64,000 bases of DNA, taken from the sequence record OR885871. One strand, written 5' to 3'. Shown one piece after another: positions 24,287 to 24,364 of the stretch; position 1 is the stretch's first letter, and each line of letters starts with the position of its first letter. A program made the translations under genes and the position numbers. A model generated the notes under the pieces. It was given only the letters and a program-made list of their open reading frames with translations, had not been told where the DNA came from and ran no database searches. Source of the stretch: Escherichia phage vB_EcoM_JN03.

Positions 24287-24364
24287 CAACTTTGATGGCT
24301 CTGGTACTAAAGATCCCGCGTCACCCATAGACATGGTTTATAAAATCCAGAGCCATCAAAGTTG
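24287..24364. repeat. perfect 18-bp inverted repeat (CAACTTTGATGGCTCTGG) with 42-nt spacer
   Basis: Arms 24287-24304 and 24347-24364 are exact reverse complements; lies in ORF-poor island. Confidence 0.7.

What the first reader, a model, noticed from the sequence alone, without database searches (positions are those of the whole stretch)
24287..24364. Perfect 18-bp inverted repeat with 42-nt loop inside the RNA island
CAACTTTGATGGCTCTGG at 24287-24304 is exactly complementary to 24347-24364. A perfect 18-bp stem is far longer than a terminator and has no flanking T-run. It could be a processing site, a protein-binding hairpin, or a stem of a larger ncRNA.
Basis: seen in the sequence. Interest (0 to 1): 0.5.

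Follow-up and report, generated by a model that had tools for sequence, protein, structure and literature searches.

The report
Conserved RNA hairpin in phage island
The inverted repeat is a real, evolutionarily maintained ~20-base-pair RNA helix, read from the minus strand, in an unannotated 2.3-kb block of structured RNAs next to the tRNA genes of a Vi1-like (Kuttervirus) Salmonella/E. coli phage; it most likely marks a cutting or boundary point in front of a small RNA of a family that Rfam does not hold.

Summary
24287-24304 and 24347-24364 are perfectly complementary; no 64-kb simulation gave an arm longer than 15 nt. The window is a Kuttervirus (Ackermannviridae). The hairpin lies in an ORF-free island (about 23963-26219) transcribed with the minus-strand tRNA cluster. 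In 12 distinct relatives from several genera, 97.9% of stem cells pair and 6 of 20 pairs show compensatory double changes. Non-Watson-Crick cells are G.U 32: A.C 2 in the minus sense, so the stem works as minus-strand RNA. The 42-nt loop is dispensable: Limestonevirus keeps the stem under a GAAA tetraloop. The helix abuts the closing helix of a 206-nt structured RNA whose first hairpin carries an invariant loop, CCCGUAUCCC-N4-UGGUUAAGAC. I found that loop in about 45 other viral and metagenomic contigs, several directly beside tRNA genes, and not in Rfam 15. Three other covarying stems of 19-23 predicted pairs sit in the same island, beside a tmRNA-like tag module. Best guess (about 0.4): an RNase III-type processing stem that sets the 5' end of the core RNA, where other phages have a tRNA. 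The main rival is a structural arm. No expression or cleavage data exist. Interest is moderate; the surrounding island is the bigger story.

The parts
24347..24366 (-). 5' arm of the hairpin in RNA sense (UGCAACUUUGAUGGCUCUGG): the 18 perfect positions 24347-24364 plus two wobble positions 24365-24366
24285..24304 (-). 3' arm of the hairpin in RNA sense (CCAGAGCCAUCAAAGUUGUG): 24287-24304 perfect, 24285-24286 wobble extension. 24285-24288 overlap the 5' strand of the core's closing helix.
24305..24346 (-). 42-nt loop. Its sequence and length vary between genera; the anchored element varies from 79 to 127 nt. Limestonevirus replaces the loop by a GAAA tetraloop.
24320..24332 (-). Apical mini-hairpin GUC-UAUGGGU-GAC inside the loop. 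The motif U(A/G)UGG(G/A)UGAC is kept in all genera that have the long loop.
   Evidence: my reading of the alignment
24374..24383 (-). Upstream strand GAGUUGUGAC. It can pair with 24359-24368 and would then exclude the lower 6 bp of the perfect stem and its two wobble pairs. All cells pair in relatives and 3 pairs show double changes, but the equilibrium probability is below 0.01.
24083..24288 (-). 206-nt structured core RNA directly 3' of the hairpin. It is closed by helix 24278-24288 / 24083-24093, which covaries.
24235..24273 (-). First hairpin (P1) of the core: stem CUUGCAAG/CUUGCAAG around the invariant loop CCCGUAUCCC-UGUA-UGGUUAAGA (24243-24265). This loop is the signature of a phage RNA family absent from Rfam 15.
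24411..24446 (-). Conserved 5' motif of the module, GCCAGCCUCGUUUGGUCCGAGCGAUAGAGGACAAGU. 24411-24446 is 97% identical in Taipeivirus; 24410-24443 is 91% identical in Erwinia phage Bue1. The unit is tandemly duplicated in Taipeivirus and some Agtrevirus.
24743..24878 (-). Second long stem (23 predicted pairs, covarying) closing a 92-nt domain
25025..25157 (-). Third long stem (19 predicted pairs, covarying). Its 5' arm starts in the CCA end of the 125-nt tRNA-like RNA.
25559..25641 (-). Fourth long stem (23 predicted pairs with mismatches, covarying), just 5' of the tmRNA-like tag module
22327..26432 (-). Inferred transcription unit: promoter-like site 26432-26404, RNA island, tRNA-Met/Asn/Gln/Ser plus one more tRNA, strong intrinsic terminator 22349-22327
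   Evidence: consensus scans only; inferred

Best explanation
SHOWN: the inverted repeat is a selected helix of about 20 bp that works in the minus-strand sense, most simply as RNA co-transcribed with the minus-strand tRNAs. It is one of four such stems (19-23 predicted pairs) in an ORF-free, modular RNA island of about 2.26 kb (roughly 23963-26219) in a Kuttervirus genome. It sits with no linker on the 5' side of the closing helix of a 206-nt structured RNA (24288->24083). That RNA's first hairpin carries the invariant loop of a phage RNA family often found beside tRNA genes. INFERRED: the helix is a double-stranded punctuation mark. Host RNase III, which accommodates about 22 bp of duplex, cuts both strands of the stem. 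This separates the core RNA from the upstream module and sets or protects its 5' end. In phages that lack the hairpin the same position is held by a tRNA or tRNA-like 3' end, where tRNA-processing enzymes would do that job. What is selected is the duplex, about two helical turns long, not its sequence or its loop.
For: Real and non-random. Kuttervirus identity and conservation in about 286 phage records, nearly all Ackermannviridae. Covariation: 97.9% of 240 cells paired, 6 of 20 pairs with double changes, 21 such cells, 0 of 500 shuffles as good, slid controls 35-40% paired. Strand: in the minus sense, non-Watson-Crick cells are G.U versus A.C = 32:2 (this stem), 12:1, 9:0 and 33:0 (the other three stems); all tRNAs are on the minus strand. 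Duplex rather than loop is selected: LIMEstone1 keeps a stem of about 17 pairs with several G.U under a GAAA tetraloop, and P46FS4 has a longer loop with the closing pair swapped G-C to C-G. Stem length is 17-21 bp in all genera, close to the ~22-bp duplex that RNase III accommodates (PMC6212723). That paper gives a median of 58 nt between paired cuts in intramolecular stems; a mid-stem cut here would give about 58-62 nt. Position: the 3' arm runs straight into the covarying closing helix of the core. In Serratia phage phiMAM1 the hairpin is absent and a tRNA-like 3' end (...GGGUGCCA) sits 4 nt before the core. In KP13-26, L049, L050 and L090 a tRNA lies 14-28 nt from the family motif; by my reading of the printed sequences it is just upstream. 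Module breakpoints between phages fall at the bases of the long stems. The third stem begins inside the CCA end of a tRNA-like RNA.
Against: There are no RNA-seq, 5'-end or rnc-dependent data for any Ackermannviridae phage in the searched literature. I did not score RNase III box preferences. A fully Watson-Crick stem could equally be a rigid arm. The apical loop motif is conserved in most genera, which a pure processing signal does not need. An alternative upstream helix also covaries. Transcription of the island is inferred from strand bias, flanking tRNAs and consensus promoter/terminator matches only.
Confidence: 0.4

Rival explanations
1. Architectural arm. The helix is a rigid strut, coaxially stacked on the core's closing helix, within one large folded RNA (the module 24450->24075 or more). 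It presents its apical loop for a tertiary or intermolecular contact, or for a protein. It is not cut.
For: There is no linker between the stem and the covarying closing helix. Stem length is conserved. The apical motif GG(G/A)UG is kept in genera with the long loop. By my reading it is complementary to the invariant UAUCC of the core loop, and the A/G change keeps an A-U or G.U pair. There are four similar stems in one island. Large phage RNAs beside tRNA genes (GOLLD, ROOL) are known to be built from long helices (my own knowledge).
Against: LIMEstone1 drops the apical motif for a GAAA tetraloop, and phiMAM1 drops the whole hairpin while keeping the core. The roughly 45 other family members have no such arm. 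The loop-loop pairing is only 5 bp and rests on one variable position.
Confidence: 0.3
2. Folding or regulatory switch. The upstream strand 24374-24383 first pairs with 24359-24368. The long hairpin displaces it once the 3' arm is made. The exchange times folding or processing of the core RNA.
For: The alternative helix pairs in 100% of cells and 3 pairs show double changes. RNAalifold prefers it in the consensus. It overlaps the lower 6 bp of the perfect stem and its two wobble pairs.
Against: Its equilibrium probability is below 0.01, against 0.98 or more for the long stem. The double changes lie in the part that does not overlap the 18-bp perfect stem (columns 9-12 with 26-29), so a short separate hairpin explains them. 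No ligand-binding or terminator element is attached.
Confidence: 0.1
3. Binding site for a double-strand-RNA-binding protein of phage or host, other than RNase III cleavage. Examples are a decoy, a stabiliser or a packaging partner.
For: A duplex about two turns long with sequence-independent conservation suits dsRNA-binding domains. Four copies lie in one island.
Against: No dsRNA-binding protein gene is identifiable next to the island: the flanking proteins match only families of unknown function. Nothing distinguishes this reading from RNase III recognition.
Confidence: 0.1
4. DNA-level element: a cruciform, an invertible loop, a replication or packaging site or physical end, or a selfish palindromic insertion with no RNA role.
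For: Several GenBank records begin or end at the arm/loop junction: AV101, allotria, dinky and LHE287 at window 24303, and heyday at 24348. The hairpin is present or absent between genera.
Against: Wobble asymmetry of 32 G.U to 2 A.C means only one strand is kept paired. The loop has the same orientation in all 15 distinct variants. No invertase or terminase gene is adjacent. The stem is embedded in a covarying RNA structure. The record ends are most simply assembler breaks at an inverted repeat (inference).
Confidence: 0.05

Closest known systems
RNase III processing stems in polycistronic transcripts: phage T7 early-RNA sites, the stems enclosing 16S and 23S rRNA, and T4 species 1 RNA from the T4 tRNA cluster, reported as an RNase III substrate (examples from my own knowledge; general rules from PMC6212723)
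   Same: An intramolecular duplex of about two helical turns in a multi-gene stable-RNA transcript, placed at the border between functional RNAs. Its sequence is free to vary as long as pairing is kept. The host encodes RNase III.
   Different: Cleavage has not been shown. The stem is fully Watson-Crick, whereas the T7 sites have internal loops that give single cuts. There is no sequence homology to any known site.
GOLLD and ROOL, large structured RNAs of phages and prophages that lie beside tRNA genes (my own knowledge; both are Rfam families)
   Same: ORF-free, highly structured RNA of unknown function, encoded by phages next to tRNA genes, with many long helices.
   Different: No Rfam family reaches threshold anywhere in the island except tRNA. 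The island is a mosaic of separable cassettes, not one conserved fold. The hosts are Enterobacterales.
tmRNA (ssrA)
   Same: About 1.1 kb upstream, the same island carries a typical resume codon and tag frame (ANDNTFLAVA**). The frame is kept with synonymous changes across genera.
   Different: ARAGORN calls a tmRNA only at a lowered threshold, and the tRNA-like ends it uses are absent in some relatives.
Bacterial Y RNAs (YrlA): a long stem formed by the ends, closing a tRNA-like module (my own knowledge)
   Same: Long stems closing small structured domains; tRNA-like modules in the same locus.
   Different: No Rfam Y RNA hit. I did not scan the window for a Ro/Rsr gene. The enclosed loop of this stem is dispensable.

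Membership tests
RNase III intramolecular stem substrate (E. coli type) | Continuous duplex of about 20-22 bp (two helical turns) | tested here: met
   20 bp in the window (18 Watson-Crick plus 2 G.U), 17-21 bp in relatives. The ~22-bp figure comes from PMC6212723.
RNase III intramolecular stem substrate (E. coli type) | rnc-dependent double cleavage leaving 2-nt 3' overhangs | not testable with these tools
   Needs end-mapping in wild-type versus rnc-deleted hosts, or an in-vitro cleavage assay.
RNase III intramolecular stem substrate (E. coli type) | Base-pair preferences in the proximal, middle and distal boxes, and a G-C pair between the cuts | not tested
   The scoring matrix is in Supplementary Table S4 of PMC6212723. 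It needs an assumed cut site and I did not apply it.
Intrinsic (Rho-independent) terminator | Short G+C-rich stem followed by a U run | tested here: not met
   No T/U run after the stem on either strand. The terminator scan does not list it. The stem is 18-20 bp with a 42-nt loop.
Any Rfam 15 family, including the microRNA precursor models that gave weak hits | Score at or above the family's gathering threshold | tested here: not met
   The best hit is mir-3119 at 28.5 bits against a threshold of 80. All other hits are lower, and all are generic long-hairpin models.
Invertible DNA segment flanked by inverted repeats | Both loop orientations occur; a recombinase gene is nearby | tested here: not met
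   The loop has the same orientation in all 15 distinct variants. No recombinase is among the neighbouring genes. Read-level data were not available.
Protein-coding sequence (some GenBank records annotate hypothetical ORFs here) | Reading frame conserved; indels in multiples of three | tested here: not met
   The element length between fixed anchors is 79, 114, 115, 117, 119, 120, 126 or 127 nt. Substitutions are pairwise-compensatory. Only short TTG-start ORFs overlap it.
Unnamed phage RNA family with invariant loop CCCGUAUCCC-N4-UGGUUAAGAC (applies to the adjoining core RNA, not the hairpin) | The invariant loop embedded in a stem that covaries between members | tested here: met
   The window has the motif at 24243-24264 inside the stem CUUGCAAG/CUUGCAAG. 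In 44 of 45 non-Ackermann members the motif is flanked by 6 or more pairs, with 38 distinct flanks; the control mean is 15.
Unnamed phage RNA family with invariant loop CCCGUAUCCC-N4-UGGUUAAGAC (applies to the adjoining core RNA, not the hairpin) | Shared architecture downstream of the first hairpin (A-rich joiner, covarying 4-5-bp helix closed by CAAAC, 3' hairpin) | tested here: inconclusive
   The architecture looks similar by eye. A sequence-only profile of the downstream parts does not find the window significantly (E = 0.68). No covariance model was built.
RNase P RNA (considered for the adjoining core because of a P3-GGAAAG-P4-like arrangement) | Match to an RNase P covariance model | tested here: not met
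   No RNase P family appears at E <= 10 in three permissive scans. The resemblance is recalled from memory and limited to one helix.

The most novel reading that the evidence does not exclude
The hairpin is one of four ~20-bp struts of a modular, multi-domain phage RNA assembly of about 2.3 kb. The assembly would comprise a tmRNA-like tag module without its own tRNA-like domain, several oversized tRNA-like RNAs, and a member of an uncatalogued phage RNA family with an invariant 23-nt loop. It would act on the host translation or ribosome-rescue machinery, with the long stems serving as excision signals or as the scaffold that holds the modules together.
Probability: 0.12. Interest if true: 0.8.

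Novelty: new member of a known kind. Interest (0 to 1): 0.5.

Why it matters
Ackermannviridae (Vi1-, CBA120- and SFP10-like phages) are widely isolated and used for biocontrol. Yet this 2.3-kb stretch is left blank or filled with spurious 'hypothetical proteins' in their GenBank records. The evidence here says it is RNA under structural selection. The hairpin gives a concrete, testable handle on how the block matures, through an rnc-dependent cut. The block holds two items of wider interest. One is a phage tmRNA-like tag conserved at the peptide level. The other is a small RNA family with an invariant loop that recurs in unrelated large phages beside tRNA genes. There is also a practical point: several deposited genomes break exactly at this hairpin, so it probably disturbs assembly.

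Tried and rejected
1. Rfam 15, at gathering threshold and in three permissive scans: only tRNAs pass. The hairpin draws sub-threshold animal and plant miRNA models, which is meaningless.
Three fall in the hairpin against about 1.2 expected, which is not significant.
3. RNase P-like core: a lead from memory, with no model hit.
4. A stop-codon-linked or SECIS-like reading of the family, prompted by 'UGAG' before its first hairpin: only 9 of 45 members have an open frame of 60 codons or more ending just upstream. Rejected.
5. Invertible loop: all variants have the same orientation.
6. Coding: rejected on indel lengths.
7. A sequence-only profile of the family's downstream part against the window: not significant.
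8. Flanking proteins: PHROG families of unknown function and sub-threshold Pfam hits only. No SmpB, RNase or dsRNA-binding clue.
9. Literature: no description of ncRNA, tmRNA or transcriptome data for Ackermannviridae.
10. Bacterial genomes: the family motif occurs in only 4 of about 185,000 species genomes, and three of those look like chance hits in non-RNA context.
11. Klebsiella phage cp21, fetched for extra diversity, turned out Magnus-like.

Full report
OBSERVATION. The repeat is exactly as described. CAACTTTGATGGCTCTGG (24287-24304) is perfectly complementary to 24347-24364, with 42 nt between. The repeat finder extends it to 25 nt at 88%. It is far beyond chance. The window has a single perfect 18-nt inverted repeat with a loop of 200 nt or less, and in 100 first-order Markov simulations of 64 kb the longest perfect arm was 10-15 nt. 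Folded as RNA, the 111-nt region gives -46.9 kcal/mol on the minus strand (z = -6.6) and -43.6 on the plus strand, with no shuffle as stable. No U/T run follows the stem.

WHERE IT IS. The window is a Kuttervirus (Ackermannviridae, Vi1/SFP10/CBA120-like). The region 23900-26500 is 97-99% identical to many Salmonella and E. coli phage genomes of about 157 kb. The hairpin lies in a stretch without credible ORFs. A 189-aa gene (26424-26993) and a 48-codon ORF I read by eye (26220-26366, the position of SFP10's annotated 147-nt gene) bound it on one side. Five minus-strand tRNA genes bound it on the other: Met, Asn, Gln and Ser from ARAGORN, plus 22575-22660, which only Infernal finds. A promoter-like site (26432-26404) and a strong terminator (22349-22327) on the minus strand bracket the whole block. 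These are consensus matches only. G+C is 0.48-0.49 here against roughly 0.42-0.47 in most flanking windows. The four best inverted repeats of the entire 64-kb window all lie within 24280-25641.

CONSERVATION AND COVARIATION. About 286 phage records match the region, nearly all Ackermannviridae from Salmonella, Klebsiella, Escherichia, Dickeya, Serratia, Shigella, Enterobacter and Erwinia. I fetched representatives of Kuttervirus, Agtrevirus, Limestonevirus, Taipeivirus, Miltonvirus, Nezavisimistyvirus and an unclassified Aglimvirinae phage. Fifteen distinct versions of the hairpin element were recovered.

In an alignment of 12 of them, the 20 pairs of the stem form standard pairs in 97.9% of 240 cells. 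Six pairs carry changes on both sides (21 cells). None of 500 column shuffles reaches the observed pairing or covariation score, and sliding the 3' partner by 1-3 columns drops pairing to 35-40%. Examples:
- Agtrevirus: CAACUCUG/CAGAGUUG, a U-A to C-G change.
- Taipeivirus and phage SeF3a: GAGGAUACUGG/CCAGUGUCCUC, three double changes plus a wobble pair.
- Maynard and ECML-4: CUAG/CUAG.
- P46FS4: the closing G-C is swapped to C-G under a longer loop.

STRAND. Where the stem departs from Watson-Crick pairing it does so as G.U in the minus sense, which would be C.A mismatches in the plus sense. The G.U to A.C counts are 32:2 for this stem and 12:1, 9:0 and 33:0 for the other three long stems. 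In the window the stem also gains two wobble pairs on the minus strand only. So the element functions as a single strand of minus polarity. Given the co-oriented tRNAs and the surrounding covarying structure, that strand is RNA.

WHAT PART IS SELECTED. The loop is not essential. It differs in sequence and length between genera: the anchored element is 79-127 nt, and the length differences are not multiples of three, which also rules out coding. In Dickeya phage LIMEstone1 the whole 42-nt loop is replaced by a GAAA tetraloop on a stem of about 17 pairs rich in G.U. Most genera do keep a small apical hairpin with the loop U(A/G)UGG(G/A)UG (24320-24332 here). Serratia phage phiMAM1 has no hairpin at all. 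There, a large tRNA-like element ending ...GGGUGCCA stands 4 nt before the downstream RNA. So what is conserved is a duplex of roughly two helical turns.

WHAT IT IS ATTACHED TO. RNAalifold on 12 sequences of the module 24450->24075 gives 93 pairs, 18 of them with compensatory changes. The 3' arm of the hairpin runs without a linker into an 11-bp long-range helix (24278-24288 with 24083-24093; covarying). That helix closes a 206-nt multi-helix RNA. Upstream lie a very conserved motif (24411-24446), a variable small hairpin, and the strand 24374-24383.

That strand can pair with 24359-24368, which would exclude the lower part of the long stem. This alternative helix pairs in all sequences and shows three double changes. 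However, its equilibrium probability is below 0.01, against 0.98 or more for the long stem. Its double changes also lie outside the 18-bp perfect stem.

A WIDER FAMILY. The first hairpin of the 206-nt RNA has a 23-nt internal loop, CCCGUAUCCC-UGUA-UGGUUAAGA, that is invariant in Ackermannviridae. BLAST also found it, with a different covarying stem, in two unrelated phages:
- between tRNA-Asn and tRNA-Thr of Klebsiella phage KP13-26 (Stephanstirmvirinae);
- in an ORF-free stretch after tRNA-Asn of Acinetobacter phage fJoAci01.

Pattern scans found the loop in 9 further non-Ackermann IMG/VR contigs (58-290 kb), in 42 metagenome stretches, and in only 4 of about 185,000 bacterial species genomes. 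In 44 of 45 non-Ackermann candidates the motif is enclosed by 6 or more base pairs, with 38 different flank sequences; when the 3' flanks are swapped between members the mean is 15. Several copies lie 14-28 nt from a tRNA gene. In two contigs (L059, L065) I read the RNA, by eye from the printed sequence, as embedded between an acceptor strand and a T arm.

No Rfam 15 family matches these RNAs. A sequence-only profile of their downstream parts does not reach significance on the window. Membership of the window's core therefore rests on the first hairpin plus an architecture that looks similar by eye. None of the other members has the long 5' hairpin, so the hairpin is an Ackermannviridae-specific addition.

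THE REST OF THE ISLAND. The island is a mosaic. BLAST between genera breaks it into cassettes whose borders fall at the bases of the long stems. The other three long stems (24743-24878, 25025-25157, 25559-25641) also covary. The third starts inside the CCA end of a 125-nt tRNA-like RNA (25157-25281), which is 97% identical between genera.

At 25507->25472 there is a textbook tmRNA resume codon and tag, ANDNTFLAVA**. Across genera the frame is kept, with synonymous changes and typical ssrA endings: ANDNAYLAVA, ANDSEVLMAA, ANDDVVLMAA, ANDEKFLMAA, ANDNEFKVAA and ANDNAYLMVA. An unrelated 70-kb contig has one as well. ARAGORN misses it at default settings. At a lowered threshold it proposes a 465-nt tmRNA whose tRNA-like ends lie in cassettes that some relatives lack. 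The tRNA-like partner of the tag is therefore unresolved.

MECHANISM. Shown: a selected, minus-strand, ~20-bp helix at the 5' border of a structured RNA inside a tRNA/ncRNA block. Inferred: it is an RNase III-type processing stem. The reasons are:
- The duplex length matches the ~22 bp that the enzyme accommodates, and a mid-stem double cut would give a cut-to-cut distance near the reported median of 58 nt (PMC6212723).
- Sequence and loop are free to vary while pairing is kept.
- Four such stems punctuate one multi-RNA block at cassette borders.
- In phages without the hairpin, a tRNA or tRNA-like 3' end occupies the same position in front of the core RNA. The hairpin would then do by RNase III what tRNA punctuation does by RNase P, Z or E.
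- Precedents from my own knowledge are the T7 early RNA sites, the rRNA operon stems and T4 species 1 RNA.

I put this at about 0.4. The main rival (0.3) is an uncut structural arm stacked on the closing helix. It would perhaps use the apical GG(G/A)UG loop to contact the invariant UAUCC of the core loop; that pairing is my reading and is weak. A folding switch with the alternative helix, a dsRNA-binding-protein site, and DNA-level roles are less likely. No expression data exist for this phage family in the searched literature.

VERDICT. The helix itself is an ordinary kind of element: a conserved RNA stem, probably a processing or architectural one. Its host, an unannotated and apparently undescribed RNA island, is what deserves follow-up.

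Noticed in passing
window 25472-25507 (minus strand); module about 25381-25691: There is a tmRNA-like resume codon and tag frame, GCU AAU GAU AAC ACG UUC CUG GCA GUA GCU UAA UAG = ANDNTFLAVA**. It is kept across Ackermannviridae genera with synonymous changes and typical ssrA endings (..LAVA, ..LMAA, ..KVAA), and it also occurs in an unrelated 70-kb viral contig (L054). Default ARAGORN does not call it. The tRNA-like ends ARAGORN uses at a low threshold sit in cassettes that are absent in some relatives, so the tag's tRNA-like domain is unclear.
   Followed up: partly
window 24243-24265 within core RNA 24083-24288 (minus); loci L044-L054 and L059-L100: A phage RNA family is defined by a hairpin with the invariant internal loop CCCGUAUCCC-N4-UGGUUAAGAC. 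I found about 45 non-Ackermann examples in viral and metagenomic contigs, several 14-28 nt from tRNA genes and some followed by terminators. In two contigs (L059, L065) it appears, by eye, embedded between an acceptor strand and a T arm. It is not in Rfam 15, and only 4 hits occur in about 185,000 bacterial species genomes.
   Followed up: partly
family members, e.g. L047 9357-9520; window 24229-24238 and 24112-24121: Downstream of the first hairpin the family has an A-rich joiner (GGAAAG or AAUAG), then a 4-5-bp helix whose 3' strand follows CAAAC. The helix covaries (CCGG/CCGG, GAAG/CUUC, CUG/CAG, ACGA/UCGU) and often has a bulged U. This recalls helix P4 of RNase P RNA, but no RNase P model gives any hit.
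   Followed up: partly
window 25157-25281, 25290-25378, 25694-25760, 23965-24076 (all minus strand): Four tRNA-like elements have T-arm-like hairpins and acceptor-like closures, and some have encoded CCA ends. Standard tRNA finders miss them. The 125-nt one (25157-25281) is 97% identical between genera, while its neighbours are 75-85% identical. The others are cassettes that are present in some relatives and absent in others.
   Followed up: partly
window 24303/24304 and 24347/24348: Several GenBank genome records start or end exactly at the arm/loop junction of this hairpin: AV101, allotria, dinky and LHE287 at 24303, and heyday at 24348. One IMG/VR record ends nearby. This is most simply an assembly break at the inverted repeat, but a physical DNA end has not been excluded.
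   Followed up: partly
window 22575-22660 (minus strand): Infernal finds a fifth tRNA (47.6 bits, long variable arm) that ARAGORN does not report at default settings. The SFP10 record annotates the homologue as a pseudo 'tRNA-OTHER'.
   Followed up: no
loci L003, L004, L005, L009 (Taipeivirus and some Agtrevirus), between window 24386 and 24411: An insertion of about 170 nt repeats the unit '...GUUUGG-hairpin-CAAGU, variable hairpin, UGCGRGUUG' in tandem. So the 5' part of the module exists in one or two copies depending on the phage.
   Followed up: no
window 23900-26500 homologues in GenBank (e.g. Magnus, SeF3a, EspM4VN): Many records fill the island with short 'hypothetical protein' CDS on either strand; Magnus has about ten in the stretch. 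The covariation and indel pattern argue that these are annotation artefacts. HNH endonuclease genes are inserted in the island in Maynard and SeF3a.
   Followed up: partly
L101 (Klebsiella phage cp21) 628-662: A 13-nt tandem duplication (CCGTATCCCGGTCTGG CCGTATCCCGGTCTGG) sits inside the otherwise invariant loop. It is either a sequencing or assembly error or a natural variant that would test the loop's function.
   Followed up: no
window 19473-20666 (minus strand): A 397-aa ORF has a sub-threshold match to the PLP-dependent enzyme family (PF00291, 31.5 bits against a cut-off of 35). It is unrelated to the hairpin.
   Followed up: no
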